In this document: one piece after another, positions 9,392-64,000 of the stretch
Layout of the letters: every line of letters starts with the position of its first letter
Position numbering within the stretch: the first letter of the stretch is position 1
Position numbers and translations under genes: made by a program
Virus record (IMG/VR): IMGVR_UViG_3300038379_000173
Span: 1-64,000 of that record
DNA from: a virus
Lineage: Duplodnaviria; Heunggongvirae; Uroviricota; Caudoviricetes
Reading direction: 5' to 3' (one strand)
Length of the DNA stretch: 64,000 nucleotides
Notes under the pieces: generated by a model
Told to the model about the DNA's origin: nothing
Seen by the model: only the letters and a program-made list of their open reading frames with translations
The model's database searches: none

Positions 9392-9394
9392 AAT

Positions 9395-10129: not shown

Positions 10130-10130
10130 T

Positions 10131-11261
10131 ATGAAATTACAGCCACTAAATGTCCTTTTAGACGGTAAATTAGATGGTCCGCTAGACCCTATTAGTGTCA
10201 TCCGTCACTTTCATCCATCTCTCCCGCTCGTTGGCCTAAAATACCATAAAACAGAATCCCCAAAATTCCATCCCATCGTGCGCCAATGTCGCGGAACTGT
10301 GTTGGAGTTACCAACCTTTCGTATAGTTGCCCGCCCTTTCAACCGCTTCTTTAATCTCCACAAGGATGTTGACGGCCAGGAAGGCTTCACTTGGAATCAC
10401 TTTACAGCCGAAACGAAGGAAGATGGCACACTTATCATCGCATTCAATTACGAAGGAAGATGGTTAATTAAAACAGGGGGTAGTTGGGCTCTCGGCAATA
10501 TTACCGCAAATGCGCCAACGTGGCAGCAGGCATTTTTTGATATCCTGCCGGTAGCTAATTTTTCTGTTTTAGACCCAGCCTATACTTATATGTTCGAATT
10601 GTGTACGCCATACAACAAAGTAGTAGTAAAATACGACCAACCCAAAGTCTTTCTTCTTGGTGCTATAAATACCTCGTCTGGCTGGGAATTAGACCATTCC
10701 GTGCTGGATTATATTGCTAGCCGCCTTGGATGTGCGCGACCTACAGTTTTTAGTTGCTCAGGCAATAGTGATTTGAAACGCCTAGTTGATAGTCTCTCTA
10801 AAGGCGATGTCAAGGAAGGTTTCGTACTACGCGATATAGCGTGCAGACGTATCAAAGTAAAAACGGCAGAATATCAAGCCCTACACCATCTAAAGGACAA
10901 CGGCAACATACTGCTGCCGCGGCGCTTGGCCGCCCTTGTGCTCTCTTCGAGGGAAAAAGAAACTCTCGCCGTATTCCCTGAAATGGCCGGGGCTCTGTCA
11001 AAGGTATCCGCAGACCTATATAATGCTATGGCGGACGTAGAGAACCTTTGGTGGGCCCACCGACAATTAAGCCGCAAGGATTTTGCGATAGAAATAAAGG
11101 ATACCCCATTTACGTGGGTGCTCTTTGGTCTCTATACAAATCCACCGAGTGATGTTCGCAGCACAATCTATGCAGCATTTGCGAATAACGTCGAGAAGGT
11201 GGCCCAAAAATTGTGGGGCGGCCAGGTGTTTCAGTTTGATTGTGCAGCGGCAGATGAATAG
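10131..11261 (+). CDS. rnlA: T4 Rnl1-type RNA ligase
   Basis: 376 aa (T4 Rnl1 is 374 aa); nucleotidyltransferase motif I K-E-D-G-T (ETKEDGTLI) matches T4 Rnl1 KEDGSL. Confidence 0.8.
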   Translation: MKLQPLNVLLDGKLDGPLDPISVIRHFHPSLPLVGLKYHKTESPKFHPIVRQCRGTVLELPTFRIVARPFNRFFNLHKDVDGQEGFTWNHFTAETKEDGTLIIAFNYEGRWLIKTGGSWALGNITANAPTWQQAFFDILPVANFSVLDPAYTYMFELCTPYNKVVVKYDQPKVFLLGAINTSSGWELDHSVLDYIASRLGCARPTVFSCSGNSDLKRLVDSLSKGDVKEGFVLRDIACRRIKVKTAEYQALHHLKDNGNILLPRRLAALVLSSREKETLAVFPEMAGALSKVSADLYNAMADVENLWWAHRQLSRKDFAIEIKDTPFTWVLFGLYTNPPSDVRSTIYAAFANNVEKVAQKLWGGQVFQFDCAAADE

Positions 11262-30984: not shown

Positions 30985-31320
30985 ATGACTGAATGGCAGA
31001 AAATTGGCACCATTGGCGTGGATGCGGGTATGTGTTGGATTGGCGACCCATGCTACATCATTGGGAAAGATGCTACAGAGTCGTGGGATACGTGGCGCGA
31101 CTTTCTAAGAGACCTCGGCCGCCCATACAAGGGTTTTAAATCATTTCCCTACAAAATGGGCCACGAGGGACGCGGTGTAGTTGTTGATTCTGGCTTCGGA
31201 GATGGTGTTTATCCAGTTATGGCGCGATTTGATTCTGGCTGTCGTGTAGCCGAAGTTCGTGTGATTTTCATAAGGGAAGATGAAGATAAAGAAAATTGCG
31301 ATGATGACTACGACCCATAG
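30985..31320 (+). CDS. hypothetical protein (111 aa)
   Basis: ORF. Confidence 0.5.
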   Translation: MTEWQKIGTIGVDAGMCWIGDPCYIIGKDATESWDTWRDFLRDLGRPYKGFKSFPYKMGHEGRGVVVDSGFGDGVYPVMARFDSGCRVAEVRVIFIREDEDKENCDDDYDP

Positions 31321-31406
31321 ATTGACAAGCCGCCAGACGAAAAACTCTTAAAGGCCATCGGAGAAGCCGACCAAGCAGCTGAAGGTGCTCATCCTGAGGT
31401 CACTCC

Positions 31407-35583: not shown

Positions 35584-35601
35584 AGAAATGACACATTAAC
35601 C

Positions 35602-38749: not shown

Positions 38750-39119
38750 GGGGGTGAATTAGCTTCGATTAGTATTGCCAAAATATCCGTGCAGGTCGTG
38801 GTGGAGTAGGCCACGTTAAACCGCTCCAAAGTTTAAATGCCAAGACTACGGTCAAAGCAAGCCGGTTCGCCGGCATCCGCGGCTATCGCGTTGTTCGCAG
38901 CGCGCCTGTCGCACTCGTCGCCTAACGAGCAATTAGGTAAAGGCTCCGGGCCTCCTCTCGGAAGTTCCTATGAGGAGTCTAAGTAATAGGTACTAATACA
39001 TAGACTATTTGCTCAATAGAAATTGAGATAGGTTGGTTGAACCGACAAAACAACCCAAGCTTGTGGATGAATGGATATAGCGGAATATTGAGACGCGGGT
39101 GCAAGTCCCGCCACCTCCA
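38750..39119 (+). ncRNA. ssrA: probable tmRNA (ssrA), CCA not encoded
   Basis: 5' GGGGGTG pairs with 3' CACCTCC including a G3-U wobble; discriminator A; T-arm GCGGG-TGCAAGT-CCCGC; 3' end GACGCGGGTGCAAGTCCCGCCACCTCCA closely resembles the E. coli ssrA 3' end; 5' GGGGGTGAATTAGCTTCGA resembles tmRNA 5'; internal frame ends ...SAPVALVA-TAA at 38923..38925; about 370 nt with no protein ORF. Confidence 0.6.
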
Positions 39120-39133
39120 TCGAAAGGGGTTTT

Positions 39134-39580
39134 ATGCGTGCCAAATCGCTTCGGCTTCATACATTCCCAGAAGATGAGAATGTATTGCGGACTAAGTGTC
39201 GTGAAGTAACAGTTGCGGACATCGATACAATACAGAAAGTCGCCCCAGAAATGTATCATTTGGGCCGCTCGCTCGCCGCGGCAGCTATAGCTGCCCCCCA
39301 AGTGGGGCTTGACTTAGCTTTCTTCGTTCACTGCGGATTGCGCTCTGAAGTAGTGATAAATCCCCGCTATAGGGTTTTGTCATACGCCTCAAGCGTGGTG
39401 GCCCCAGAGGGATGTTTGAGTTTCCCAGACAAAGTCCAAGACGTTGCACGTTGGAATTGTATAGCAGTAGATTACTTGACGTCGCGCTGGACTGTAGTAG
39501 AGAAACATCTCTATGATTTTGAAGCAAGAGTTTTTCAGCACGAGGTTGACCACCTCGAAGGTAAATTGTTCATTGATTGA
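39134..39580 (+). CDS. def: peptide deformylase
   Basis: three PDF motifs: G-L-AAPQVG, EGCLSFP, QHEVDHLEG. Confidence 0.85.
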   Translation: MRAKSLRLHTFPEDENVLRTKCREVTVADIDTIQKVAPEMYHLGRSLAAAAIAAPQVGLDLAFFVHCGLRSEVVINPRYRVLSYASSVVAPEGCLSFPDKVQDVARWNCIAVDYLTSRWTVVEKHLYDFEARVFQHEVDHLEGKLFID

Positions 39581-40363: not shown

Positions 40364-40442
40364 CTTGACGACTTTAGGGGCGCCCCGTGTATTATTATGC
40401 GGGCCGCCAACTTCTCTGACCCCGCGCGGCTATGGGTTTTTC

Positions 40443-41147
40443 ATGCAACGTAAAAAAGGTAAACATGGTGGACGTTCTAAGATTCTTTTTAAACCGCGAA
40501 GTGAGGGTCAACGACGATACGTCGAATCTATAGAAAATAATACAGTAACTTTATGTGCGGGATATGCTGGGACTGGCAAGACACTCTGTGCAATTGCTAC
40601 TGCTATCGGACTTTGTCAAAATCCGACAACACCATATAGGCGTATTATTTTAGTTAGGCCCGCGGTTGAAGCTTGCGGTGAGCGTATTGGTTATTTGCCA
40701 GGCGGCATTAATGACAAAATGCGCCCACTTGTCCAACCTATCATTGACGCTATGCGTGTGCTTACAGACGATGAGTCGTTTATCAATGAATTGATTGACG
40801 GCCATAGTATTCATGGGCCTGGTATGGAAATAGTCCCCATGGCTTTTATGCGCGGCCGGACATTTTCCAATGCCATTGTGCTATTGGATGAAGCACAAAA
40901 TGCCTCACCGGCGCAGATTAAACTTTTCCTAACGCGCATTGGGGAAAACTGCAAGGTTATTATCGAAGGCGACCCGACTCAATCGGACATCTATGATGAT
41001 AGAGATAAAACAGGGTTGATGGATGCGATAAGGCGCATTGGAAGCTTGGACGACGTTGGAGTTGTGACCCTAGAGGTCTCAGATATACAACGCAACCCAA
41101 TCCTAGAGAGTATTTTGAAACGCTATGGGGATGTGAAGGGTACGTAG
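40443..41147 (+). CDS. phoH: PhoH-family ATPase
   Basis: Walker A GYAGTGKT, LLDEAQN, GDPTQSD; internal ATG 40443 gives the PhoH-typical size (track ORF starts 40365). Confidence 0.8.
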   Translation: MQRKKGKHGGRSKILFKPRSEGQRRYVESIENNTVTLCAGYAGTGKTLCAIATAIGLCQNPTTPYRRIILVRPAVEACGERIGYLPGGINDKMRPLVQPIIDAMRVLTDDESFINELIDGHSIHGPGMEIVPMAFMRGRTFSNAIVLLDEAQNASPAQIKLFLTRIGENCKVIIEGDPTQSDIYDDRDKTGLMDAIRRIGSLDDVGVVTLEVSDIQRNPILESILKRYGDVKGT

Positions 41148-41666
41148 TTGGCGTCAGTCCACAAAGAGTGTAAAGAGACCGTTCATCTAACACCGCCAAA
41201 AATTATTGCACTCGTAACAAAACATTTTGGTGGTCAAATATCACTGGACCCAGCCACTGAACCTAATAATCCAACTGGAGCCGCCACATTCTACACAGAA
41301 AAAGATAACTGCTTAATTTTACCCTGGCTGCCCAACACTTTTGTTAATCCGCCCTATGGGCGCGATTTACCACTTTGGGTCGAGAAAATAGCAACCGAAG
41401 TTGCACTCGGACATCCTACAATAGCTCTATTGCCCGCCGGCAGTGGGCGGCCAGGAACTAAATATTGGCAGAAATATGTGCTAAATAGCAATCTGCGCGC
41501 CATTTGCTATACACGTGGCCCCATAGCATTTCTAAATGCTGCTGGAGTACCACAAAAGAATAATACATACCCGAGTTATTTTTTCGGCTACAATGTAGAT
41601 TTTAACCGTTTTCTAGAGTGTTTTGGCACCCTGGGTAAAGTTCTCAGGGTTACAGTGGAGAATTGA
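41148..41666 (+). CDS. dam: phage-type DNA N6-adenine methyltransferase (Dam)
   Basis: FGGQISLDPATEPNN and NPPYGRD motifs; TTG start. Confidence 0.55.
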   Translation: MASVHKECKETVHLTPPKIIALVTKHFGGQISLDPATEPNNPTGAATFYTEKDNCLILPWLPNTFVNPPYGRDLPLWVEKIATEVALGHPTIALLPAGSGRPGTKYWQKYVLNSNLRAICYTRGPIAFLNAAGVPQKNNTYPSYFFGYNVDFNRFLECFGTLGKVLRVTVEN

Positions 41667-44736: not shown

Positions 44737-44939
44737 TTCTATCATGGGACAAATATTTCGAAGATGGGGCGAGTGTATTTAACTCATTAAAATTCTACTA
44801 TGTGGTTACTGAAAAATACATGTGGCCAGATTTGATTGGCGTCAATGGATGTTTACACGAAGACGCAACGGACCTTGAAATAGCATGGATGGATTTGGTC
44901 ACACCATTTCGCCATTATTACAGACAGAGAGACCCATGA
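44733..44939 (+). CDS. hypothetical protein
   Basis: ATGA overlap. Confidence 0.4.
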   Translation: MILSWDKYFEDGASVFNSLKFYYVVTEKYMWPDLIGVNGCLHEDATDLEIAWMDLVTPFRHYYRQRDP

Positions 44940-45451
44940 TAATTGCTCTAACTGGTCACCGGCCCGATAAACTTAACAATGAGTGGGATGGCCGCGGCCC
45001 ATGTAGCGATTATTTGCGTTACTGTCTCGCTCCGTATGCCGAAAAAGCCTCAGTGGGGATTAGCGGGATGGCGCTCGGAGCCGATTTGTTGTGGGCCGAA
45101 GAGGTGATTAAGGCTGGGAAAGAACTTTGGGCCGCAATCCCGTTTGAAGGACAAGCGCAAACGTGGTCACACAAACATCGCAAACGTTATAGAGACATAA
45201 TTGACAAGGCTGACTGTTTCGTTTTGGCGAAAACTCCTAATAAGGCCGCCTATCAAGTTCGTAATCAATGGATGGTCGATAGGTGCGATTTGTTAGTAGC
45301 CATTTAGGATGGCTCTAATGGCGGCACTGCGAATTGTGTGAGATATGCTGAGAAAGTGGGGCGGCAAATTCAACAGATACATCCTTCGGGATGGTTAACG
45401 TGGCGACCCGAAAGAAAGTCAGGGGGAGAATTAGGGAATGAAAGTCTATAG
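44936..45451 (+). CDS. SLOG/YpsA-like (DprA-related Rossmann) protein interrupted by an in-frame TAG at 45305..45307
   Basis: N-part MIIALTGHRPDK...GMALGADLLWAEE ends at TAG; the same frame continues DGSNGGTANCVRYAEKVGRQIQQI (the expected GGT...A...GK motif) to TAG 45449..45451. Confidence 0.55.
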
Positions 45452-45656
45452 ATGTCCCAAAGGACACAAGGACAACTTGCAAGTTCACTCTGTTTTAACG
45501 CGCTGTACGTTCCTATCAGATGACTCAGGATATCCAATCCCCGGCACTTTAGAATTAGAAGAGATAGATAGTAATTATCGATACTGTTGGTTTTACACAT
45601 GCGGTGTATGTAAGGAGTTTGTAGATGCTACCGAAGTGTCCGAACCCACTATGTAA
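45438..45656 (+). CDS. small Cys-containing protein (72 aa)
   Basis: RBS gggggag before ATG. Confidence 0.45.
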   Translation: MKVYRCPKGHKDNLQVHSVLTRCTFLSDDSGYPIPGTLELEEIDSNYRYCWFYTCGVCKEFVDATEVSEPTM

Positions 45657-53684: not shown

Positions 53685-54334
53685 TTGTTTAGAGCCTTAA
53701 TAAGAGTGCTCGCCTCATCCTTTGTTAGTTCATCCGCCGAAGACTTCTTAGATTTGATAAGTGCCAAAGCGGCTTTTTCATTAATCTTCTTGCGTTCCGA
53801 CAAATTCTTAATGGCGTTTAGTTGAGCATCCGTCACACTCTCATCTTCGGGCTGCCCAATTTCCTCGCGTGTGGCCTTAGAGATATTGAACGCTTGACGA
53901 AAGGCTCTTGAGGCCGCCTTTGATTCTGCGACTGCTACAAGGTGATGACTGTAGGGTGCTTTATGTGCAGTTGGCGTCGCGTCGGCCACTCCACTAAATT
54001 GTGTGCCATCTTTGAATATCACAACGACTTTAACGGCAGCTATTGGATTATCCCTGGAGGGCGTATTGATAATCTCTGCACTGTAGATTTGAATACCACC
54101 GCGGTGTTTGTGGGCAATTCGTTGTAAGCCGCGCAGTAGAGGATACTCAGAGTCACCTTCCTTCCATCTCTCTTCGGATGTCAACTCGGCATAGTAGTCT
54201 TTGTCGGCATCAAATGGATTGGTGGTATACAATATACCTATTGAGGTAGTTGGAGATGGTAATTCCCCATAAGTTGTTTGGGGAAACAATGGTTTCATCC
54301 ATTGTTGTGGGTCGCCTGCGGTTGTCTCAATCAT
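53681..54334 (-). CDS. hypothetical protein (217 aa) with helical C-terminus
   Basis: ATGA overlaps. Confidence 0.5.
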   Translation of the reverse strand: MIETTAGDPQQWMKPLFPQTTYGELPSPTTSIGILYTTNPFDADKDYYAELTSEERWKEGDSEYPLLRGLQRIAHKHRGGIQIYSAEIINTPSRDNPIAAVKVVVIFKDGTQFSGVADATPTAHKAPYSHHLVAVAESKAASRAFRQAFNISKATREEIGQPEDESVTDAQLNAIKNLSERKKINEKAALALIKSKKSSADELTKDEASTLIKALNK

Positions 54335-54935
54335 ATAATGTCTCCGGTGCTCCTTGAGTTAAATAATACTCGACTTTACCATCCATCATTTCAACGGCAT
54401 GAACGATGTAAGCCTCGACGAATTGAGGAATGACAGGGGATGACCAGGCGCGGCGGCCATGGTGACTTAGAATAATATGGAGGAGGTTATTAGCCAACGC
54501 TGTGTTTATTCGAAGGGCCGGGTCAGCAAATTCATTCCACTTATCAATAGCCTTAGAAATATAAATTGTTCCCATCGGAATGTGATGTAGAAGGGCTGCC
54601 TGCTCATTGTATGAAGGTTTCCCGTTCTCGTCATACGAATAACTCCACGACTTTCCAATGTCATGTAGTAGTGTGCCCGCAACAACAAGGTCTTTGTCTA
54701 CATTAAAACCCATTGCGATATAGTGGTCAGCGATTGAAGCGGCTAAGCGAGTTGCGTGGACTGTATGAAAGGCTAGTCCACCTTTATATGCATGATGCTT
54801 ACCAGTTGAGCCGGCTGCCCCATAAAAATCTGTTGCACATTGCCCACCTGGCGCAAATAGCCACAATATAAAGCCGGCTAGATTTTTCTTGGCCATGCCG
54901 GCCGTCAAATCTTCGATGATGTTATATAAGTTCAT
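54327..54935 (-). CDS. HD-domain phosphohydrolase (YhaM-like)
   Basis: HHAYKGGLAFHT, LLHDIGK, ILSHHG motifs. Confidence 0.65.
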   Translation of the reverse strand: MNLYNIIEDLTAGMAKKNLAGFILWLFAPGGQCATDFYGAAGSTGKHHAYKGGLAFHTVHATRLAASIADHYIAMGFNVDKDLVVAGTLLHDIGKSWSYSYDENGKPSYNEQAALLHHIPMGTIYISKAIDKWNEFADPALRINTALANNLLHIILSHHGRRAWSSPVIPQFVEAYIVHAVEMMDGKVEYYLTQGAPETLYD

Positions 54936-54937
54936 GT

Positions 54938-55717
54938 TTACCTAGCATTAATATAGTGGACTTTATGCCTGTCGCCATTTTTCATTACTTCCTCAATGGC
55001 ATCCACAGCGCGCTCACAGAAAATCTTAGAGTGACTAGTAGAATGGTCACGCACTCTAAGGACAGTCCAATTATTTGACAACAACGTGGCATTTTTCCGC
55101 TCATCCTTATCTTGGACGCGTGCTAAATCATCTTCCCCGTAGATTGGACTAAAATGTGCTGGGCCATCCCACTCAATCGCAATGGCTTCGGATGGGATAG
55201 CGATATCAATTTCGAATGCGCCTCCTGGCGTATATTCTGTTGTACGCTGGGCCAATTTATAGCCGCGTGCAGCTAAAAGTCTTGCCACCATATTTTCATT
55301 TTTACTGCCGCGCCCCTGAGCCTTCCTATTTCCGCTCGTCATTTTACGAACTGCGAGGTCTTTTTCCTCGTCAGTCTTGCTTTGCCAAGTGCGCTTGGAA
55401 CGCTGAGCAATTTCCTCACACCGCTCTCTTTTTTCGTCCTCACTCATCCTATCCCAGTGGGCTTTTATGCCAGACGTAATGCGCTCCTTGGCTTCTTGGC
55501 TACGCGTGGTGCCAGTCGCAGGATGGTCGTGGGCCGCCAAATAATTAACCTGAGCATCAGAGCGCTCGCGCAATTTAATACCGAAGGATTTTAGAGCGCG
55601 CCGCACAGTGTTGGGGTGTGTACCAACATCACGTGCGATTTGCCACGTTGAAAGATTTTTATTGACATAATGCTCAGTCAGCCATGCGGCTGTTTTCCAA
55701 TTAATCTTGTTTGTCAT
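54938..55717 (-). CDS. HTH + Vsr/DUF559-like PD-(D/E)xK endonuclease-domain protein
   Basis: N-terminal HTH LSTWQIARDVGTHPNTVRRAL; C-terminal GGAFEIDIAIPSEAIAIEWDGPAHF (Vsr-like FVDG..H); ATG 55717 preferred over TTG 55744. Confidence 0.55.
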   Translation of the reverse strand: MTNKINWKTAAWLTEHYVNKNLSTWQIARDVGTHPNTVRRALKSFGIKLRERSDAQVNYLAAHDHPATGTTRSQEAKERITSGIKAHWDRMSEDEKRERCEEIAQRSKRTWQSKTDEEKDLAVRKMTSGNRKAQGRGSKNENMVARLLAARGYKLAQRTTEYTPGGAFEIDIAIPSEAIAIEWDGPAHFSPIYGEDDLARVQDKDERKNATLLSNNWTVLRVRDHSTSHSKIFCERAVDAIEEVMKNGDRHKVHYINAR

Positions 55718-55874
55718 TGTCTTTAAAAATTCGATGTGGGGCAAGACGCCGAAGTTCTGCTAAAATCTCTTCCGCACTCCTACCGTATTTCTTCTCCAAA
55801 AACTCAATGCCATAGTCAGTATATTCTGCTAAAAAGGCCCGCTCACGCTGCTTATTACCCTCTGGGATTATCAC
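55701..55874 (-). CDS. small hypothetical protein (57 aa)
   Basis: GTG with perfect RBS aggagg 6 nt upstream; not in the track (<60 aa). Confidence 0.4.
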   Translation of the reverse strand: MIIPEGNKQRERAFLAEYTDYGIEFLEKKYGRSAEEILAELRRLAPHRIFKDNDKQD

Positions 55875-56137
55875 TGAGACCTCCTGCGATTTTTAAGCTC
55901 CTCTTGGAGTTGACTCCAAAGAGTTTCTAATTCCCTGCGTAATTCGTCACGGCGCGCTTTTTGTTTCTCGCGTGCTTCGTTATCCGCAATTGAGACTTTT
56001 GGCATCGAGACCATTTCTTCGCGAATAGCGTTGTAACGACGGTAATAAGGCGCCAGGAAACTAGCGTCCTTAACTTCTTCGTCACTCTGAAAATTAAACT
56101 GGCGACGCAAACGTTTCATTGAAGCACCATTATCCAA
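55871..56137 (-). CDS. hypothetical charged helical protein (88 aa)
   Basis: ORF. Confidence 0.45.
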   Translation of the reverse strand: MDNGASMKRLRRQFNFQSDEEVKDASFLAPYYRRYNAIREEMVSMPKVSIADNEAREKQKARRDELRRELETLWSQLQEELKNRRRSQ

Positions 56138-56332
56138 CGCTTCTATGAACGCCTTCCGTTCCTCGTCATTTAAACTGCGACCGCAGTCAGGTTTGGAGCC
56201 TCAGCGGCGCCTTGGTTTCTTTTCAGTCATTATTGTCAAACAAGCTCAAGATTTCAAAGATTACACCAAAAATAAACAAGTAAACAAGAAATTCTAGCAA
56301 ACATGACATCAGCCATAACATAACTGTGGACA

Positions 56333-57298
56333 TTAGCCGCCCAAGCGCTTAAGGTCCGCACGCACCATTTCAGCTACTAACTCACTAAAGAAATAGAGCG
56401 GCTGCCACCCCAACGTCTCACGAATTTTGGTAGCATCCCCACAAAGCAAATCGACTTCAGCCGGCCGCATATAAGCCGTGTCACTTTGGACGTAACGCTC
56501 CCAATCATTAATACCCACAAAATGGAAAGCTTCGCGGCAAAAATCTGCCACACTATGAGTTTTACCAGTTGCAATAACAAAATCGTCCGGGGAAGAGTGT
56601 TGGAGAATGCGCCAGATTGCCTCCACTGAATCTTTGGCGTGCCCCCAGTCGCGTTTAGCCGCCAAATTCCCTAGGGTGAGTTTATCAGCTAGACCGAGCT
56701 TAATGCGTGCTACTCCATCTGTGATTTTGCGTGTAACAAATTCCAAACCCCTACGCGGGCCTTCTGAATTAAATAATATACCATTGGCAGCAAACATTCC
56801 GTAGGACTCGCGATAATTTCGTGTAATCCAATAGCCATATAGCTTGGCCGCCGCATAAGGGCTACGGGGATAGAAAGGTGTGGACTCGCGCTGTGGTGTC
56901 TCTTGCACCTTCCCATACATTTCGCTGGAAGAAGCTTGATAAAACCGCGTCGTTGGTGATATTTGTCGGAGAGCCTCAAGACAATTTGTAACTCCAAGGC
57001 CAGTCACCATTCCGGTATGAAATGGCTCATTCCACGAAGCTTTGACAAACGACATGGCCGCTAAGTTATAGAATTCATCAGGCCGCCACTTCTCTACCAA
57101 TCTATTGATTGACCCAGAATCTATGATATCGGCTTGTTCTAAATGAAACTTCTCAGAAGTGACGTGAGATAGATTGTCAAGACCGCCGACTGCACGACGG
57201 CGAGTCGTGCCAACTACCGTATAGGACTTTTCTAGTAGAAGGTCGATTAGGTGGGAGCCAAGCTGCCCATTAGCACCTGTTACTATAGCGACGGCCAT
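56333..57298 (-). CDS. gmd: GDP-mannose 4,6-dehydratase-like SDR
   Basis: N-terminal Rossmann VTGANGQLGSHLIDLLLEKSY; 321 aa extended-SDR. Confidence 0.75.
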   Translation of the reverse strand: MAVAIVTGANGQLGSHLIDLLLEKSYTVVGTTRRRAVGGLDNLSHVTSEKFHLEQADIIDSGSINRLVEKWRPDEFYNLAAMSFVKASWNEPFHTGMVTGLGVTNCLEALRQISPTTRFYQASSSEMYGKVQETPQRESTPFYPRSPYAAAKLYGYWITRNYRESYGMFAANGILFNSEGPRRGLEFVTRKITDGVARIKLGLADKLTLGNLAAKRDWGHAKDSVEAIWRILQHSSPDDFVIATGKTHSVADFCREAFHFVGINDWERYVQSDTAYMRPAEVDLLCGDATKIRETLGWQPLYFFSELVAEMVRADLKRLGG

Positions 57299-57516
57299 GA
57301 TGCACCTCTGCTATTAATTAAGCTTTTGAATTCACTATGATGATATAGTATTTGTCGTATGTATTCTACAACCTGAACAAAGCGGACCTTGTCTTTTAAC
57401 CTGTCATATATTGCTTCATTATCTAGGTCGCAGTTTAAAAAATCGTCAAGTCGCTCAACGTGGTAGAGTAGCTCTCGAAAGCTACCCCATTCTTCATTGC
57501 TTAAAATATGATGCAT
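57283..57516 (-). CDS. hypothetical protein (77 aa)
   Basis: ORF. Confidence 0.4.
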   Translation of the reverse strand: MHHILSNEEWGSFRELLYHVERLDDFLNCDLDNEAIYDRLKDKVRFVQVVEYIRQILYHHSEFKSLINSRGASWPSL

Positions 57517-57581
57517 TTGTTACCTCATTTGTTCCGCAAAAGTTGCGCAAACATTTGCGTGTAAAACCATGTGAACATCCT

Positions 57582-57935
57582 CTATTTTTGACACGATGAT
57601 ACTTTGAGTAGCACGCAACCGTTGGGACCGGCCACAATACGATGTAGGAGCGGCGGACGCACTATGATTGGTGTGAAATATAGCATGGTAAGGTCAATTA
57701 GGTTGTAGTTGTCCCACTCGTCGGGTTGCTCTAATTGGAGAGTAGCCGCCCCTTTTATGAGACTAAGATACTCCACTACAGATTGATTGTAAGTGAGCGG
57801 TAATCGTTCATTTGGTTTGATTTGTAGTTCTTCAACTATATATTTGGGCTTAGCGACCAATACCTCAGACGTGCCCCATGACATAGTGGCGACAGCTCGC
57901 GGTAATTCATTTACTTCTTCTATTGTCATCAGCAT
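57582..57935 (-). CDS. hypothetical protein (117 aa)
   Basis: ORF. Confidence 0.45.
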   Translation of the reverse strand: MLMTIEEVNELPRAVATMSWGTSEVLVAKPKYIVEELQIKPNERLPLTYNQSVVEYLSLIKGAATLQLEQPDEWDNYNLIDLTMLYFTPIIVRPPLLHRIVAGPNGCVLLKVSSCQK

Positions 57936-58591
57936 TGCTTACCCCGCATTCTACTAATATGGTCAAAGAGAGTGCGTACGTTTAAATCCTCGAAAGAGGA
58001 TAATTCCCAGACATAACATCCAGCTTCGCGGGCGCTTTGAATCCCCTTGGGGCTATCCTCTACTACCAAACAATTCTTAGGCGGAACATACAAGAGATGG
58101 GCCGCCTTTTGATATGGAAAAGGAGATGGTTTAATAGCTTCGCCCACATCTTCGTTCGTAACAACAACGCTCATAAATTGCTTTAGATGAGCGCGTTCCA
58201 ACATCATCTCGGTTGTATAGCGAGAACAATTTGTTACTAGACCTACGGGCGCTAAAGATTCGGCATATGCGACTGTATCTGTTACGCGTGTTATTGGGTG
58301 ACAATATTTCTCTATGTATTGAACGGTCAAAAGCTGTTTCTGTTGGTTTATTGTGTCCCAGAGAGCTTTATCGTTTGATAGCCGACCTTCAGCAGCCAAT
58401 ATTTGCAGTTTGCGTTGTGTAGATAGACCGTTGAATCGTTGGGAGTGTTCTAGTTCGGTAACCTGAATACCAGCACACCAAGAAAGTGCGGCCAAAAACG
58501 CCTGTTCGTGCCACTGGGCCGCATTAACTAGCGTTCCATCTAAATCAAACAGGAAAGCTGCTGGGATTCTAGGTCTATCCAGACTGTCCAT
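57929..58591 (-). CDS. HAD-superfamily hydrolase (beta-phosphoglucomutase/phosphatase-like)
   Basis: motif I FLFDLDGTLV. Confidence 0.7.
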   Translation of the reverse strand: MDSLDRPRIPAAFLFDLDGTLVNAAQWHEQAFLAALSWCAGIQVTELEHSQRFNGLSTQRKLQILAAEGRLSNDKALWDTINQQKQLLTVQYIEKYCHPITRVTDTVAYAESLAPVGLVTNCSRYTTEMMLERAHLKQFMSVVVTNEDVGEAIKPSPFPYQKAAHLLYVPPKNCLVVEDSPKGIQSAREAGCYVWELSSFEDLNVRTLFDHISRMRGKQC

Positions 58592-58826
58592 AGGACTTTA
58601 CCTCATCTGTAACATTAGCAGCCCCAGGGGTCATTTTATTCAGGAGATTTTTGAGTTTAGACCGTTGCTCGCACAACGCTATGTCTTTAGCCATTAGAGC
58701 GGCCAACTCTTCCTTTGTATAATTCTCTGGACTACGCGCCATTAAAGTTTTGGTATTACACAAATCATACATTTTTGCGTTAACTATAGAGAGAGCATCT
58801 ACCAAATCACCAAGTAGCATTACCAT
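58575..58826 (-). CDS. hypothetical protein (83 aa)
   Basis: ORF. Confidence 0.45.
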   Translation of the reverse strand: MVMLLGDLVDALSIVNAKMYDLCNTKTLMARSPENYTKEELAALMAKDIALCEQRSKLKNLLNKMTPGAANVTDEVKSYGQSG

Positions 58827-59644
58827 TTCTCCAAATCTAGCCCATAAGCAGCTAGGGCTGCTGCGTTTTTAGCTTCACGTTGCTCTCGCGGACAATGCAA
58901 TTGGTTGCCGAAATGTATAAATGAACCCCAGTGAGAATGCACACCCCATTGAACCGGGCGATGCTTGCAAACTTTGTATGTGAGACGGTCCAACAAAATA
59001 GTAGTAGTATCACCCCAGCCACAATACTTGCGGTAAGTTTTCTCTACAAGATTCTCAACTAAAGTTTTCTCTGTAGAGAATTGTTCTTGTAATGAAGAGA
59101 CCTTCATGTCATACAAAAATGTAGTATCCTTTGCAAATTCGTGGTCTACTGCAAAAATCTGCGGCATAATTTCATGGCCATCAAATGTTAGCTCAAAGGA
59201 CTGTCCACCATGCTCCATTTGATATGGCCCCTGTGGCCCTACCGTATCACATGCGACTGGCCGCCCGCTTACCTTCCACTTTTCAAACTCAGCCCAAAAC
59301 CCCTGTTCGTTCAACAGTAGTATGTCCCCGTGCATATGCAGGATGTTTTCAATTGGCCCCATCTCGCGCTCTAAGTCCTTTATTTCCAACATTCCATGTG
59401 TGATTTGGCGCATGATGGAAGTGGAGACCAATTCGTTGAATTTCTTTCCTACTATATCTTTCAGATGCACCACGCGCGTGTATGGGTCGCTTTCAAAGCG
59501 TAAGGTGTGGTCCTTGTCGCCAGTAATAACCACTACGATGGGCGCTTCGCGCGCGGAGGTCCATTTGGTGCGCAACATATTGACTGTAAAAGTCACTTCC
59601 TTCATAGTATCGTAGGAAGTTATTAGGAAAGCTAGCTTAGGCAA
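58820..59644 (-). CDS. hypothetical protein (274 aa), possible glycosyltransferase
   Basis: position within the sugar operon only; no motif confidently recognised. Confidence 0.45.
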   Translation of the reverse strand: MPKLAFLITSYDTMKEVTFTVNMLRTKWTSAREAPIVVVITGDKDHTLRFESDPYTRVVHLKDIVGKKFNELVSTSIMRQITHGMLEIKDLEREMGPIENILHMHGDILLLNEQGFWAEFEKWKVSGRPVACDTVGPQGPYQMEHGGQSFELTFDGHEIMPQIFAVDHEFAKDTTFLYDMKVSSLQEQFSTEKTLVENLVEKTYRKYCGWGDTTTILLDRLTYKVCKHRPVQWGVHSHWGSFIHFGNQLHCPREQREAKNAAALAAYGLDLEKW

Positions 59645-60530
59645 GTGTCACCATTCTTTGTAATTTTCCATCCCAATTAAAAGCTTCAAACGATTCAGTG
59701 TCGTTTAGAGAATAAATGGCCACCTTGTAGTCGTCTGGGGTTCCCATTGGAACCATCAACTCAACTGGATATGTTCTAATATCAAATTTTAGTATTTCAT
59801 TGTAAACTGGACAGACATAAAATTCGCCATTAACCCTCTTATTTTGTTTTATCATAGAGTGCGCCGCATCAACGAAGGTCCCGCCGGTCCAAAAATAATA
59901 GATACCGACTGTAGCTCGGTCACTTATTGGCTGTTTCTCTGCAACTTCTTCAACAAAACCGCGTTGGTTCAACTTAGCATACGACCAACGAGTATCATTC
60001 TCCTTGTAAGGTTTAAAGGTCGCAATCATACCTCCGCACGAATCGTAAATTGCTTGGTTCAACATGTCTTGGATTGTACCAGTCTCCATAATCCATTGAT
60101 GGCCACCCTGGAACGCACGGACATGCACTTTATTTCGCACATTCCAAACACACAATTGGTCTGAATTCGCAATGACTAACTCGTCATAATTATCGATTAG
60201 GTCTTCTGCCATCAAGACAGTACAAGCCGCACCCTCAGTTACTTTGTCAACTACACGAACGACTGTTTTAGCCCTCAACTCTTCTGGCATCTGTGATTCC
60301 CAGAGAGGAAGATGCTCTGAGCGTAATAGAACAATATAGCGATGTGGCATAAGGGGCATGACATTATACATTACGCGCGCCAACATTGGCAGACCACCAA
60401 CATCCAAGAATGGTTTTGGCGTAGTATAGCCAGCTTCCAAGAAGCGCCGACCAGCCCCAGCCGCAGGTATAACAATATTAAGCATTTTTGTTCCAAACCC
60501 CAAAGATAACAGCGCCGCCATCTGTGCCAA
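59637..60530 (-). CDS. sugar-phosphate nucleotidyltransferase
   Basis: N-terminal IVIPAAGAGRRF...PKPFLDVGGLPM signature. Confidence 0.75.
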   Translation of the reverse strand: MAQMAALLSLGFGTKMLNIVIPAAGAGRRFLEAGYTTPKPFLDVGGLPMLARVMYNVMPLMPHRYIVLLRSEHLPLWESQMPEELRAKTVVRVVDKVTEGAACTVLMAEDLIDNYDELVIANSDQLCVWNVRNKVHVRAFQGGHQWIMETGTIQDMLNQAIYDSCGGMIATFKPYKENDTRWSYAKLNQRGFVEEVAEKQPISDRATVGIYYFWTGGTFVDAAHSMIKQNKRVNGEFYVCPVYNEILKFDIRTYPVELMVPMGTPDDYKVAIYSLNDTESFEAFNWDGKLQRMVTLA

Positions 60531-61083
60531 TTTGTGCCGCGCACTGTTTCACCCTATGATAATTCCTATCGCAATCGACAGTAAATCCCAGGGCGACTAA
60601 ATCCTCCGTAACCCATGTACTTTTGTGTCGCTGTGCCTCTACTGCCACTTCTTTTTCACCCTTAGCTTCAATTTTAGCAGCACAGCTTGTTTCGCCAAAC
60701 CCGAAAGATTCTTCACCACTCTGGTTACAAGTCCCGTGTGGCGCAAAGATAATGATGCGCCGCGCGACTTTTTGAAGACGCTTAAGTAAATCCAACCCCG
60801 CATCTTTTTCTACGTGCTCGAGAAAATCAATGAGAGTGAAAACATCGGGAGTTATACCAGATGTGGCTAACAGTCTATCGAATTCAAGAGCGTTCCCATG
60901 TATGACAACCCAATCGCCTGGCACGCGGTTCTCAATATAAGATGAAATTAACTCTATACCAACACGCTGCCGACTACGGTAGTGTGGAAAATTCTCGAAG
61001 TGTCCAGCGCCCAATTCACACACACTATACATATCCTTAGTATTGTCGGACAAGAAACTCAAGAATTTAGGCATGTTGGCCAT
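60478..61083 (-). CDS. putative SAM-dependent methyltransferase
   Basis: VCELGAGHF (motif I-like) and VFTLIDFLEHV; tentative. Confidence 0.45.
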   Translation of the reverse strand: MANMPKFLSFLSDNTKDMYSVCELGAGHFENFPHYRSRQRVGIELISSYIENRVPGDWVVIHGNALEFDRLLATSGITPDVFTLIDFLEHVEKDAGLDLLKRLQKVARRIIIFAPHGTCNQSGEESFGFGETSCAAKIEAKGEKEVAVEAQRHKSTWVTEDLVALGFTVDCDRNYHRVKQCAAQIGTDGGAVIFGVWNKNA

Positions 61084-62188
61084 TATGAAGTCTCCTAAAG
61101 TATTCTACTACTTCCTTGACTGTCTCTTCTAGAGAGATATCTGCCTTCCAACCTAACTCATTGGCTGCTAACTCAACAGATGGTAGACGCACTTGAACGT
61201 CATGTTCAAATGGTTTTTCGCTTTCCCACGCAAATGGGACTGCCGACCCGTGAACTTCTCGCCATACCATTTCGGCCAACTCTAATATGGAAGTTTTACG
61301 GGCAACAGAGATATTAAAAGCGCGGTTAATCTTTCCTCTGTGTTCCATGACCGCAGCGACGCCACGCGCAATATCCTTGCCATGCGTAAAACATCTTACT
61401 TGCTGACCATCTCCGTAGAGTCTCAGTGGATTTTGGCCGCGCAAACATTTTACGACTAGGTCAGGTAGCACATGAGACATGCGTAACTTGATATTGCCAC
61501 TTTGAACTTCAGGCTCATTCGGTGACTCTTCCTCGCCTAACCCCACAGCATTGAATGGTCGCACTATACCATAGTCTAGTCCGTATTGAGTGTGAGCGCC
61601 CTCGGCAAAATATTCAATGGCCAACTTGCTAAATCCATAGGTACTATAGGGGGGTGGAAATTGTTTAGTTTGCCACTCGTGAGAAGGCCAAATAGATTTG
61701 TGTAACGCGCTCTGGTAAACTTTATCATCTACAGAATTATCATTAGATATATATTGAAGGTGTTCTAAATGTGCGTCCGCACCTTCGTATACCATCGAGG
61801 AAGATATAACAACTACTTTCTCTAGGGCCGATTCTTTGTATGCTTTAATAGCCGCATCGAAAGTGTTGGCCGCAATCCGCTCGTTTGTTGCCAGGAGGTC
61901 ATAGGCCCTGTCATGGAAGTATTTAATGCCGCCGACCATTGCGGCCCCGGCAATCAAATATTTAACTGAATAGCGCTTTAGAACATTGAATAACTTCACC
62001 ACAGCATACATGCCAGTAAGGTCCATCTCAACAAAGCGGAAATATGGATGGTTATCGTAGTCGCGTGCAACCTTCCCATATTTTGAATAGTTATCAATTC
62101 CAATAACGCGATAATCGTTCTCAAGTAGGTGGCGGCAAATATAGCCACCAAGAAAACCCTGGGAACCCGTCACACAGACAGTTTTCAT
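61067..62188 (-). CDS. NAD-dependent sugar epimerase/dehydratase (extended SDR)
   Basis: VCVTGSQGFLGGYICRHL Rossmann; YGFSKLAIEYF (YxxxK). Confidence 0.8.
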   Translation of the reverse strand: MKTVCVTGSQGFLGGYICRHLLENDYRVIGIDNYSKYGKVARDYDNHPYFRFVEMDLTGMYAVVKLFNVLKRYSVKYLIAGAAMVGGIKYFHDRAYDLLATNERIAANTFDAAIKAYKESALEKVVVISSSMVYEGADAHLEHLQYISNDNSVDDKVYQSALHKSIWPSHEWQTKQFPPPYSTYGFSKLAIEYFAEGAHTQYGLDYGIVRPFNAVGLGEEESPNEPEVQSGNIKLRMSHVLPDLVVKCLRGQNPLRLYGDGQQVRCFTHGKDIARGVAAVMEHRGKINRAFNISVARKTSILELAEMVWREVHGSAVPFAWESEKPFEHDVQVRLPSVELAANELGWKADISLEETVKEVVEYFRRLHNGQHA

Positions 62189-62481
62189 TGGGCCACATCA
62201 CCTTTCAATTCATTCTTGGGCGGCAAATCGTAATCATATAAGCCAAGTCGTTGGGCCTCGGCTGTTAATTCGTCGGCTGCTGCTTTTAGTTTTTCGTTAT
62301 CGTCACCGAAGAACTGTTTATTCCACAAAGAGGCAAGGCCCCACACTTCCCTTTGGTCCTCTGGCGACAATTGTTCGTAGATATCATCTAAGGATGAATG
62401 TAGTGCGGCCATTCTTTCATAGAGTTTGGCACGTACCCTTAGTAGGGTTAGATACACGCCTTTGTAGTCATCTATTGTCAT
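62185..62481 (-). CDS. hypothetical protein (98 aa)
   Basis: ATGA overlap. Confidence 0.45.
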   Translation of the reverse strand: MTIDDYKGVYLTLLRVRAKLYERMAALHSSLDDIYEQLSPEDQREVWGLASLWNKQFFGDDNEKLKAAADELTAEAQRLGLYDYDLPPKNELKGDVAQ

Positions 62482-62633
62482 AGATAAATCCTAAGGAGAA
62501 TAAGGATGGTGGCAAGTAAACATACTGTGCCGTAGCACACACCGTATTGAATATAGGTCAATAGACACAAAATAGCCGCACAAAACCATGCACCATATTC
62601 AACATGGGCTAATGACTTAAACTGACGATTCAT
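62478..62633 (-). CDS. small membrane protein (51 aa)
   Basis: ATGA-coupled at both ends; hydrophobic; not in the track. Confidence 0.35.
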   Translation of the reverse strand: MNRQFKSLAHVEYGAWFCAAILCLLTYIQYGVCYGTVCLLATILILLRIYL

Positions 62634-63523
62634 TTGCGCATCCCACTTGGGACAGTAACATCATAGAGTTTGTTGTCATCGCGCACTACACGAAATATTT
62701 CGGCCGGAACATCTAAGTCACTGGCAAGTTTTGTGAACGCTGAAACTTCCTTGGGTAGACATTGGCCTGCATACCCACGCCATTGTTCATTACAATCCAA
62801 ATAGGAATTTTCAATGCAAGATTGTTTGCACACCGCGTTTTTAACTGCTGTGTAATCAGCCCCAAGACGCTCGCATACCTCATAGAAACCATTGGCAAAA
62901 ATAATTTTGGTGGCCCTATAGACATTATTAAAGTATTTGACCAATTCTGCCTCAGTGGAGGTGAGGCGAACGAAATTTTGTGGGTAATGACCATGAAGGT
63001 CGCAGATTATCTTGTATACCTGTGCGTCATAATCTACCCAATGCGGCATTGGCTCAGAACGATAAGGTAGGCCCACAACACATACTTCATGGTGCTCAGT
63101 GAAGTCGCTAAAAGCCGAACGCTCACGTAAAAATTCAGGGACGAAACAAAGGCGGAGTAGATGGCCATCGCGAAATTCATCTGAATACTTTTGGTAAGTC
63201 TCTTGATATTTATTGAAAAGCCGCTGTGTCGTGCCAGGTAAAACGGTAGACTTAATCGCAATGATTCCAAGATAGCGCGCAGCTATCAATTCGTCAACTA
63301 CACCCTCAACAATGGATGTGTCGCAACTACCATCAGCAGCCATTGGCGTAGGCACACAGATAAAACACACTCCGGTGTTGAGTACCGCCTGGATTGTAGT
63401 GCCAAGACGTAAATCGTGCCTAAAAATGCGGTGGCCGAGGCGCTCGAGACCGAGCGCCACGGCACTACCGACACAACCTTCACTGCCAATAATGCCTATG
63501 GGGACATTAATCAATTGGAACAT
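62630..63523 (-). CDS. UDP-glucose/GDP-mannose dehydrogenase-family protein (shortened)
   Basis: GIIGSEGCVGSAVALGLERLGH; CVPTPMAADGSCD; VPEFLRERSAFSDF; ATG 63523 preferred over 63598. Confidence 0.65.
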   Translation of the reverse strand: MFQLINVPIGIIGSEGCVGSAVALGLERLGHRIFRHDLRLGTTIQAVLNTGVCFICVPTPMAADGSCDTSIVEGVVDELIAARYLGIIAIKSTVLPGTTQRLFNKYQETYQKYSDEFRDGHLLRLCFVPEFLRERSAFSDFTEHHEVCVVGLPYRSEPMPHWVDYDAQVYKIICDLHGHYPQNFVRLTSTEAELVKYFNNVYRATKIIFANGFYEVCERLGADYTAVKNAVCKQSCIENSYLDCNEQWRGYAGQCLPKEVSAFTKLASDLDVPAEIFRVVRDDNKLYDVTVPSGMRK

Positions 63524-63869
63524 TAACCTCATCCAGTCTTGTTGACTGTCTCGGCACACGAATTGTAAGTACTCCATCTGCAAGAGTAGCCTTAACATCC
63601 TGTGGAGTAGCCGTTCCGATTGTCACCGACTTAGCGAAACTAAGACCTTTCTTAGAGCCCGAAACATTAAGTCTGGTAGGCGTTACAGTTACTTTTACAT
63701 CCTTCTTGGAAACCCCAGGAAGTTCCAATGTATAAACCCATTCTTTATCAGTTGGCTCAACTGATAAACCAGAAGATGCTGACAAATCCATAAAAAGAGA
63801 CGATGGCCAATCCAAAATTTGTCGGGTTGGCGCATTAAAAACATCATCCAAGAGAGACAACATTCCCAC
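63507..63869 (-). CDS. Hsp20/alpha-crystallin small heat-shock protein
   Basis: C-terminal ADGVLTIRVPRQ motif; ~120 aa; GTG 63869 or ATG 63863. Confidence 0.7.
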   Translation of the reverse strand: MGMLSLLDDVFNAPTRQILDWPSSLFMDLSASSGLSVEPTDKEWVYTLELPGVSKKDVKVTVTPTRLNVSGSKKGLSFAKSVTIGTATPQDVKATLADGVLTIRVPRQSTRLDEVNVPID

Positions 63870-63892
63870 AATACACCTTCCTTTCTGTCTTT

Positions 63893-63921
63893 AATATAGG
63901 GCGAGTGACATTAAAAGTCAA
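63893..63921 (-). promoter_or_regulatory. sigma70-type promoter TTGACT-N17-TATATT (minus strand) for the Hsp20/sugar operon
   Basis: reverse complement of 63893..63921 reads ttgact-17 nt-tatatt, ~25 nt upstream of the first start codon. Confidence 0.55.
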
Positions 63922-64000
63922 CAGGTGAGCATTTTTCATTTTGCATCATTTTTTGTGGCACAAAGACGACACACAGGGACTATTTAATGATACGTAAATC

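What the first reader, a model, noticed from the sequence alone, without database searches (positions are those of the whole stretch)
44936..45451. In-frame amber codon inside a SLOG/YpsA-like gene
The ORF encodes MIIALTGHRPDK...GMALGADLLWAEE and then hits TAG at 45305..45307. The same frame continues for 47 codons with DGSNGGTANCVRYAEKVGRQIQQI. This is the conserved GGT...A...GK segment expected in the C-terminal half of the DprA/YpsA Rossmann fold. The gene therefore looks intact except for a single stop. Options are a nonsense mutation (pseudogene), a sequencing error, or programmed read-through/suppression. Other genes end normally with TAG, so genome-wide amber reassignment is unlikely.
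Basis: seen in the sequence. Interest (0 to 1): 0.55.

Follow-up and report, generated by a model that had tools for sequence, protein, structure and literature searches.

The report
Nonsense-mutated phage SLOG (YpsA-like) gene
An accessory gene of an uncultivated large phage carries a single premature stop codon where its relatives have tryptophan; this is most likely an ordinary, recent knock-out mutation rather than an unusual way of reading the genetic code.

Summary
The ORF at 44936..45451 (+) is a YpsA-like SLOG gene of 171 codons, interrupted by one in-frame TAG at 45305..45307 (codon 124). The 47 codons after the stop are homologous to the family C-terminus, in exact register (34 bits, E about 1e-12, against an HMM built from homologs only). 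They keep all 9 highly conserved columns, including the invariant GGT. The stop column is Trp in 97 of 117 homologs, including the nearest relative, so the simplest event is one TGG-to-TAG transition. The TAG is reproduced in three assemblies from at least two samples, and no full-length allele is on record. TAG is otherwise a normal terminator in this genome. It ends 25 of 134 ORFs, and those ends match the orthologous ends in a sister phage. Treating TAG as sense raises coding density only from 91.6% to 92.1%. No tRNA was found in the roughly 74 kb of this phage I could reach. On a confident model of the nearest homolog, truncation removes the GGT loop and the last helix-strand-helix of the Rossmannoid fold. 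Verdict: a young nonsense mutation (loss or strong knock-down) in a dispensable accessory gene. Functional suppression is not excluded but has no support. Interest is low. Side finding: a phage-encoded tmRNA at 38750..39122.

The parts
44936..45304 (+). N-terminal 123 codons of the YpsA-like SLOG gene (MIIALTGHRP...CDLLVAI). The ATG overlaps the stop of the upstream gene (ATGA at 44936..44939).
   Evidence: Pfam PF06908 at 34.3 bits against a cutoff of 27.7. The homolog HMM gives 148.6 bits over profile positions 1-128. The exact 123-aa product is on record as P0001.
45305..45307 (+). In-frame amber codon TAG (codon 124), in the column that is Trp in 97 of 117 homologs (Tyr 9, Phe 7, His 3, Ser 1). 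The inferred ancestral codon is TGG.
   Evidence: It is identical in Logan SRR12687280 (L001) and JGI 3300043242 (L002).
45308..45448 (+). 47 codons that encode the family's C-terminal segment: the invariant GGT loop, a helix, the last strand, and an 18-residue tail. They are not translated unless the TAG is read through.
   Evidence: 34.2 bits and E about 1e-12 alone, over profile positions 130-159. All 9 conserved columns are retained. It maps to the loop at 142-144, helix 143-153, strand 158-161 and helix 163-167 of the P0002 model.
45449..45451 (+). Original stop codon of the gene (also TAG). It overlaps the start of the next gene by 14 nt.
45438..45656 (+). Downstream 72-aa Cys-rich gene with its own Shine-Dalgarno sequence (GGGGGAG at 45423..45429). 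Its expression therefore need not depend on translation of the SLOG gene's 3' end.
   Evidence: It is called as a gene in L001 (10503..10721).

Best explanation
A single G-to-A transition changed the conserved Trp codon (TGG) to the amber codon (TAG) at codon 124 of a YpsA-like SLOG accessory gene, in an uncultivated phage of about 150-167 kb. Ribosomes terminate there and release a 123-residue fragment. That fragment lacks the invariant GGT loop and the last helix-strand-helix of the Rossmannoid fold, so the gene is inactivated, or at best reduced to the trace of full-length protein that ordinary background read-through gives. The mutation is evolutionarily young, because nothing else in the gene has decayed. 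It is the consensus allele in every sample in which this phage has been assembled. The gene is dispensable. Viral YpsA-like SLOG proteins are predicted, but not shown, to sense or degrade NAD+/ADP-ribose-derived immune signals, so losing the gene would matter only on hosts that use such defences. Shown here: the stop, its register, the homology and intactness of the downstream part, its reproducibility across assemblies, normal use of TAG elsewhere, and what the truncation removes from the fold. Inferred: the ancestral codon, the loss of function, the recency and the dispensability.
For: The stop occupies exactly one profile column, and homology is continuous on both sides. That column is W in 97 of 117 homologs and in the nearest relative P0002, and TGG to TAG is one transition. 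All top-120 homologs other than the window's own product are 152-284 aa and span the stop. G129, G130, T131 and A138, which are invariant in the family, lie after the stop. In the AlphaFold model of P0002 (pLDDT 95.7), the stop falls just after strand 132-136. Truncation removes the GGT loop, helix 143-153, strand 158-161 and helix 163-167. The fold is YpsA/DprA/LOG-like (2NX2, TM 0.77, E 6e-11). The TAG is identical in a 148.8-kb Logan contig, a 949-b JGI contig and the window. The samples are not the same data: there is 1 mismatch in 970 bases in L010 and a 49-bp indel in L009. TAG is a normal terminator here. It ends 25 of 134 ORFs, and in-frame extensions after it (median 6 codons) match those after TAA (8) and TGA (6.5). 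Nine other TAG-terminated ORFs end within 0-13 residues of their L003 orthologs, while only the SLOG gene ends 32 residues early. Coding density is 91.6% under the standard code and 92.1% with TAG as sense. Neither ARAGORN nor Rfam finds a tRNA in the window or its reachable flanks. The RNA fold around the stop is not significant (z = -0.73).
Against: The 47 downstream codons are perfectly preserved: 9 of 9 conserved columns, and a bit score per residue similar to the N-terminal part. Continued selection on a read-through product would also predict this. With one haplotype and no intermediate relatives (the next homolog is 58% identical), recency cannot be told apart from constraint. About 75-95 kb of this genome could not be reached, so a phage-encoded suppressor tRNA is not excluded. 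The host is unknown. No reads were available to check for a minority TGG allele.
Confidence: 0.8

Rival explanations
1. Functional suppression or leaky termination. The TAG is decoded at a useful rate, either by a phage- or host-encoded amber suppressor tRNA or by near-cognate read-through. The phage then makes a small, possibly regulated, amount of full-length SLOG protein, for example to limit the dose of a protein that is toxic when abundant.
For: The downstream segment is fully intact, with all conserved residues. The TAG allele is the only allele on record, in at least two samples. Tyr, a common product of amber suppression, occurs naturally at this column in 9 of 117 homologs. Overproduced B. 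subtilis YpsA is toxic (PMC7376506). More than half of the genome was not searched for tRNAs.
Against: No homolog among 117 has a stop at this position. No tRNA was found in about 74 kb by two methods. TAG terminates 19% of ORFs, with no depletion, no excess of back-up stops, and conserved orthologous ends, which does not fit efficient suppression during infection. There is no significant downstream structure. The base after the stop (G) is the commonest after genuine TAG terminators here, 8 of 25. The stop lies inside a compact domain rather than at a domain boundary, unlike known programmed read-through.
Confidence: 0.1
2. Sequencing or assembly error, or a minority variant promoted to the consensus. 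The real phage population carries TGG.
For: No read data could be inspected. All three assemblies are 100% identical over the region, so they might share some underlying data.
Against: Three assemblies made by two pipelines (JGI and Logan) give the same base. The JGI 3300043242 contigs differ from the window elsewhere (1 mismatch in 970 bases), and there the phage is fragmented into contigs of about 1 kb, whereas SRR12687280 gives 149 kb, so these are different datasets. A substitution error at one position in a consensus from deep coverage is improbable. No full-length allele exists among 15 billion catalogued proteins.
Confidence: 0.04
3. Genome-wide or block-wise reassignment of TAG to an amino acid, as in crAss-like and Lak phages that use genetic code 15.
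For: The only support is the existence of one in-frame TAG in a phage gene.
Against: Coding density is already 91.6% and gains 0.5 points with TAG as sense. Twenty-five ORFs on both strands end in TAG with short extensions. Their ends coincide with the ends of orthologs that use TGA or TAA in the sister phage. PHROG 5209 ends at the TAG of ORF 30985..31320. No suppressor tRNA was found.
Confidence: 0.01
4. A naturally short or split form. The 123-aa product is the functional protein, or the C-terminal part is made separately and the two pieces associate.
For: The 123-aa product still passes the Pfam YpsA threshold (34.3 against 27.7 bits).
Against: None of the other top-120 homologs is shorter than 152 aa. 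The only in-frame start after the stop is the GTG at 45338, which has no Shine-Dalgarno sequence and lies after the GGT motif. The ATG at 45309 is out of frame and gives 10 codons. The fragment lacks invariant residues and two core secondary-structure elements.
Confidence: 0.03

Closest known systems
YpsA / DUF1273 (Pfam PF06908) clade of the SLOG superfamily, e.g. Bacillus subtilis YpsA (PDB 2NX2) and the SPbeta prophage protein YoqJ. Phage members are variously annotated as 'DUF1273', 'DprA-like' or 'GTP-binding domain' (PHROG 289).
   Same: The Pfam hit is above threshold. The family motifs are present: TGHRP, GMALGxD, AAxPF, RN and GGT. The nearest intact homolog models as the same Rossmannoid fold (2NX2, TM 0.77). 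It is a stand-alone small gene in an early or accessory block of a large phage, as described for viral SLOG domains (PMC9503650).
   Different: It is interrupted by a stop at the conserved Trp. It is only about 20% identical to YpsA itself and at most 41% identical to any cultured-phage homolog. No biochemical function is established for the phage clade.
Classical amber (nonsense) mutants of phages such as T4 and lambda
   Same: A single base change creates UAG inside an otherwise intact gene, and the product is a truncated polypeptide unless a suppressor tRNA is present (established knowledge).
   Different: This one arose naturally in an environmental population and sits in a gene that is presumably non-essential, so no suppressor host is needed for propagation.
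Stop-codon recoding in phages (TAG to Gln, genetic code 15) of crAss-like, Lak and other gut phages (bioRxiv 10.1101/2021.08.26.457843; PMC9523058)
   Same: An in-frame TAG within a conserved phage protein-coding gene.
   Different: Recoded phages have many in-frame TAGs, chiefly in late genes. They show a marked gain in coding density under the alternative code, usually carry a suppressor tRNA, and avoid TAG as a terminator. None of this applies here.
Programmed stop-codon read-through (e.g. the Qbeta A1 coat extension at UGA, or MuLV gag-pol at UAG with a downstream pseudoknot)
   Same: One in-frame stop followed by an open, coding-looking extension.
   Different: In those systems the stop is conserved among relatives, lies between functional modules, and (in MuLV) is followed by a stimulatory structure. 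Here the stop is unique to one lineage, lies inside a domain, and has no significant structure downstream.

Membership tests
YpsA-like SLOG (Pfam PF06908 / DUF1273) | Sequence match to the family profile above the curated threshold | tested here: met
   34.3 bits for the truncated product and 42.5 bits for the read-through product, against a cutoff of 27.7. 197-203 bits against an HMM of close homologs.
YpsA-like SLOG (Pfam PF06908 / DUF1273) | Three-layer Rossmannoid alpha/beta fold like YpsA, DprA and LOG | tested here: met
   Tested on the nearest intact homolog, P0002 (58% identical, syntenic): pLDDT 95.7; Foldseek gives 2NX2 at E 6e-11 and TM 0.77, then DprA, ShosA, LOG and ThsA-SLOG.
YpsA-like SLOG (Pfam PF06908 / DUF1273) | Conserved motifs, including the C-terminal GGT loop | tested here: met
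   41 of 45 columns conserved at 85% or more are retained, and all 9 columns after the stop are retained. However, the GGT loop is encoded downstream of the stop.
YpsA-like SLOG (Pfam PF06908 / DUF1273) | Uninterrupted reading frame that yields the whole domain | tested here: not met
   TAG at codon 124 of 171. It is a member by descent, but the gene as it stands encodes only 72% of the domain.
YpsA-like SLOG (Pfam PF06908 / DUF1273) | Binding or processing of a nucleotide or ADP-ribose-derived ligand | not testable with these tools
   This is only predicted for the viral clade (PMC9503650).
Phage TAG recoding (genetic code 15-like) | Many in-frame TAGs, and coding density clearly higher with TAG as sense | tested here: not met
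   91.6% against 92.1%. This is the only interrupted gene among the ORFs comparable with the sister phage.
Phage TAG recoding (genetic code 15-like) | TAG not used as a genuine terminator | tested here: not met
   25 of 134 ORFs end in TAG. Their orthologous ends are conserved. PHROG 5209 ends at a TAG.
Phage TAG recoding (genetic code 15-like) | Suppressor tRNA with a CUA anticodon encoded by the phage | tested here: inconclusive
   None found in the window or reachable flanks, about 74 kb, with ARAGORN and Rfam.
Programmed translational read-through | The stop codon is conserved at the same position in relatives | tested here: not met
   All 117 homologs have a sense codon there.
Programmed translational read-through | A stimulatory sequence context or RNA structure 3' of the stop | tested here: not met
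   The fold z-score is -0.73. The only local hairpin has the TAG in its loop and follows from the codons for A-I-x-D-G. The +4 base, G, is the commonest after genuine TAG stops here. No Rfam element was found.
Programmed translational read-through | Measurable full-length product | not testable with these tools
   This needs a reporter assay or proteomics.

The most novel reading that the evidence does not exclude
The amber codon is kept because it acts as a dosage valve. A suppressor tRNA in the unsampled part of the phage genome or in the host, or unusually leaky termination in that host, would yield a small amount of full-length SLOG protein. This would make it a natural case of single-gene amber attenuation of a potentially toxic anti-defence protein in a phage that otherwise uses the standard code.
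Probability: 0.07. Interest if true: 0.5.

Novelty: new member of a known kind. Interest (0 to 1): 0.12.

Why it matters
It matters little beyond correct annotation. The gene should be labelled as a nonsense-interrupted (pseudo)gene of the YpsA-like SLOG family, not as an intact 123-aa 'YoqJ-like' protein as it currently stands in the JGI annotation. It is a clean natural example of a very young loss-of-function allele in a phage accessory gene, from a family predicted to counter NAD+/ADP-ribose-based host immunity. If time-series samples exist, it could serve as a marker for gain and loss of such genes. Only if suppression were demonstrated would it become a mechanistically interesting case.

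Tried and rejected
1. Genome-wide or block TAG recoding: rejected on coding density, TAG terminator usage and conservation of orthologous ends.

2. Frameshift or indel instead of a substitution: rejected, because the HMM register is continuous (1-128, stop, 130-159) and the other frames do not match.

3. Re-initiation or a split gene: the ATG at 45309 is out of frame (10 codons), and the GTG at 45338 lies after the GGT motif and lacks a Shine-Dalgarno sequence.

4. Ribosome hopping over the stop, as in T4 gene 60: there are no matching take-off and landing codons around ATT-TAG-GAT. I considered this from the sequence only.

5. Pyrrolysine: the aligned residue is Trp, Tyr or Phe, and no tRNA is present. 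I did not pursue it further.

6. Stimulatory RNA structure: not significant.

7. Other interrupted genes: I checked same-frame neighbouring ORF pairs (22298-22843, 30985-31416, 35248-35856, 21649-22338). No family spans a stop. The pair 8726-9391 plus 9392-10129 is two genes, the second encoding a pentapeptide-repeat protein.

8. Looking for a TGG allele or more contigs: an exact-pattern scan of viral contigs and a scan of metagenome contigs with NNN at the codon both found nothing.

9. Reaching the rest of the genome: look-ups with two longest-ORF translations failed because the called starts differ.

11. No DNA-level relative was found among 50,697 cultured or deposited phages. The PhoH protein is at most 43% identical to that of any cultured phage, so host and taxonomy remain unknown.

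Full report
**1. The observation**

The sequence at 45299..45313 reads GCC ATT TAG GAT GGC. The TAG at 45305..45307 is in the frame of the ATG at 44936. The same frame continues for 47 codons to a second TAG at 45449..45451.

The ATG at 44936 overlaps the stop of the preceding gene (ATGA). It also aligns with the N-termini of most homologs (MIIALTGHRP). The ancestral product was therefore 171 aa, not about 188. The larger figure corresponds to an ATG at 44885, inside the upstream gene.

An open run of 47 codons after a stop is unremarkable on its own: about 10% of ORFs in this window have one. The homology, however, is decisive:
- Against an HMM built only from 33 homologs, the N-terminal piece matches profile positions 1-128 (148.6 bits).
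- The 47-aa piece alone matches positions 130-159 (34.2 bits, E about 1e-12).
- The other two frames match nothing.
- Pfam YpsA (PF06908) extends from profile 2-131 to 2-164 of 168, and rises from 34.3 to 42.5 bits, when the stop is read through.

The lesion is thus a substitution of exactly one codon, with no frameshift or indel.

**2. What the codon replaced**

In an alignment of 117 homologs, the stop column is Trp in 97, Tyr in 9, Phe in 7, His in 3 and Ser in 1. None has a stop or ends there. The nearest relative is P0002 (168 aa, 58% identical), encoded at the syntenic position of a sister phage, and it has Trp. TGG to TAG is one G-to-A transition, the simplest explanation.

G129, G130, T131 and A138 are invariant in the family and lie after the stop. 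All nine highly conserved columns after the stop are retained. Over the whole gene the sequence departs from consensus at 4 of 45 conserved columns. That is within the range of intact homologs (mean 1.8, sd 1.7; 17 of 117 are at least as deviant). Apart from the stop, there is no sign of decay.

**3. Is the TAG real?**

The exact 123-aa product is on record (P0001). It is encoded on a 148.8-kb Logan contig from SRR12687280 and on a 949-b JGI contig from metagenome 3300043242, and both are 100% identical to the window over the region.

Other contigs of the same phage differ slightly from the window: 1 mismatch in 970 bases in sample 3300043242, and a 49-bp indel in sample 3300043259. The phage is fragmented in one sample and nearly complete in another. 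These are therefore different datasets, assembled by different pipelines.

No full-length allele appears among the catalogued proteins; the next hit after P0001 is 58% identical. A sequencing or assembly artefact is therefore unlikely. I could not inspect reads.

**4. Is TAG read differently in this genome?**

No, on four lines of evidence:
- Under the standard code, a simple greedy ORF set covers 91.6% of the window. TAG ends 25 of 134 ORFs on both strands. In-frame extensions after TAG (median 6 codons) match those after TAA (8) and TGA (6.5).
- Treating TAG as sense raises coverage only to 92.1%.
- Across the roughly 20 kb shared with sister phage L003, nine other TAG-terminated ORFs end within 0-13 residues of their orthologs' ends, and many of those orthologs use TGA or TAA. 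Only the SLOG gene stops 32 residues early.
- PHROG 5209 ends at the TAG of ORF 30985..31320.

The known hallmarks of recoded phages are many in-frame TAGs, a gain in coding density and suppressor tRNAs (bioRxiv 10.1101/2021.08.26.457843; PMC9523058). They are absent here.

**5. Suppressor tRNA and read-through signals**

ARAGORN and Rfam find no tRNA in the window, or in the flanks I could reach (window -1.2 kb to +8.2 kb, about 74 kb in all). The sister phage has a tRNA-Asn and an aberrant tRNA-like gene, but neither has a CUA anticodon. The remaining 75-95 kb of this phage could not be fetched, so a suppressor there is not excluded.

The RNA around the stop does not fold better than shuffled controls (z = -0.73). 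A 7-bp hairpin with UAG in its loop follows from the codon choices for Ala-Ile-x-Asp-Gly, and it would exist equally with UGG. The base after the stop (G) is the commonest after genuine TAG terminators here (8 of 25). No in-frame restart could deliver the C-terminal part with its GGT motif.

**6. What the truncation does**

The nearest intact homolog models with high confidence (pLDDT 95.7, pTM 0.89) as a Rossmannoid alpha/beta domain. Its best structural match is B. subtilis YpsA (2NX2, E 6e-11, TM 0.77), followed by DprA, ShosA, LOG and the ThsA SLOG domain.

The stop maps to Trp137 of that model, immediately after strand 132-136. Termination deletes the GGT loop (142-144), helix 143-153, strand 158-161 and the terminal helix. 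I infer that a fragment lacking invariant residues and two core elements is inactive and probably unstable. This step is inference, not measurement.

**7. Function and context**

The gene lies in a long plus-strand block of small auxiliary genes: HAD phosphatases, a tmRNA, peptide deformylase, PhoH, Dam and a UDG-family protein.

Viral SLOG domains are mostly of the YpsA-like clade and are more frequent in larger phages. They have been proposed, on comparative grounds only, to sense or degrade cADPR-like immune signals (PMC9503650). Overproduced B. subtilis YpsA blocks cell division and is toxic (PMC7376506).

Cultured-phage homologs are at most 41% identical. They are annotated as DUF1273, 'DprA-like' or 'GTP-binding domain'. 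The phage has no close cultured relative: there is no DNA match, and PhoH is at most 43% identical.

**8. Verdict**

The most likely explanation (about 0.8) is a young TGG-to-TAG nonsense mutation that inactivates a dispensable accessory gene and is the consensus allele in the sampled population.

Functional suppression or leakiness (about 0.1) would also explain the intact downstream frame, but it has no positive support. Error, recoding and split-gene readings are each unlikely.

This is an ordinary kind of event in a new member of a known family, and interest is low.

**9. Side observations**

The most notable is a full-length tmRNA gene at 38750..39122 (Rfam, 89.9 bits against a gathering score of 47). 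ARAGORN misses it. It lies directly upstream of the peptide deformylase gene and is conserved in the sister phage. Phage-encoded tmRNAs are already known (PMC7162821; PMC9004378). A tmRNA does not decode stop codons, so it does not bear on the amber codon.

Noticed in passing
window 38750..39122 (+); sister phage L003 3148..3547: A full-length tmRNA gene (Rfam RF00023, 89.9 bits against a gathering score of 47, E 1e-33). It has a G3:U70 acceptor stem, a canonical T-arm and a putative 28-codon tag, AKTTVKASRFAGIRGYRVVRSAPVALVA*. ARAGORN does not detect it, even on the isolated region. It sits 11 nt upstream of the peptide deformylase gene (39134..39580) and is conserved in the sister phage (59.7 bits), where a tRNA-Asn precedes it. 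Phage tmRNAs are known, but the tmRNA-deformylase pairing may be worth a look.
   Followed up: partly
L003 2418..2488 (+): A tRNA-like gene in the sister phage, found by Rfam (45 bits) but not by ARAGORN. It has a 6-nt anticodon loop (AAAAAU) and an A3-C68 mismatch in the acceptor stem. It is a degenerate or unusual tRNA and not an amber suppressor. The window has no counterpart.
   Followed up: partly
window 9392..10129 (+) and the region just upstream of window position 1 (L009 710..1534): Two paralogous pentapeptide-repeat genes, about 92-94% identical over about 640 nt and roughly 10 kb apart. The 297-aa minus-strand ORF 9308..10201 is a spurious antisense frame of the repeat.
   Followed up: partly
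window 1710..1758: A 49-bp insertion/deletion polymorphism between samples. It is present in the window and in SRR12687280 but absent from JGI 3300043259 (L009). It lies in a 560-bp non-coding gap, is flanked by a CGCC direct repeat, and is GC-rich with hairpin potential.
   Followed up: no
window 45298..45314: A 7-bp hairpin, AGCCAUU-UAG-GAUGGCU, places the amber codon in a 3-nt loop. It follows from the codons for Ala-Ile-x-Asp-Gly and would form equally with UGG. The regional fold is not significant (z = -0.73).
   Followed up: yes
window 54300..64000 (-) continuing to about 72000 (L006 1..10000): A large minus-strand cluster of nucleotide-sugar and glycan genes: UDP-glucose/GDP-mannose dehydrogenase, GDP-mannose dehydratase-like and RmlD-like epimerases, UDP-GlcNAc 2-epimerase, a glycosyltransferase and an NTP transferase. 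It also includes HSP20 and a faint LAGLIDADG hit. This suggests the phage modifies a surface glycan or its own DNA or virion.
   Followed up: no
window 40365..41666: The TAG stop of the PhoH gene (41145..41147) is followed directly, in the same frame, by the ATG of the Dam methylase gene (41148). These are two distinct genes, and in the sister phage they overlap by 1 nt in different frames. An automated scan for 'interrupted genes' would flag this pair falsely.
   Followed up: yes
window 44936..45307 (database record P0001): The JGI annotation lists the 123-aa fragment as an intact 'uncharacterized phage-like protein YoqJ'. The premature stop is not flagged in public data.
   Followed up: yes
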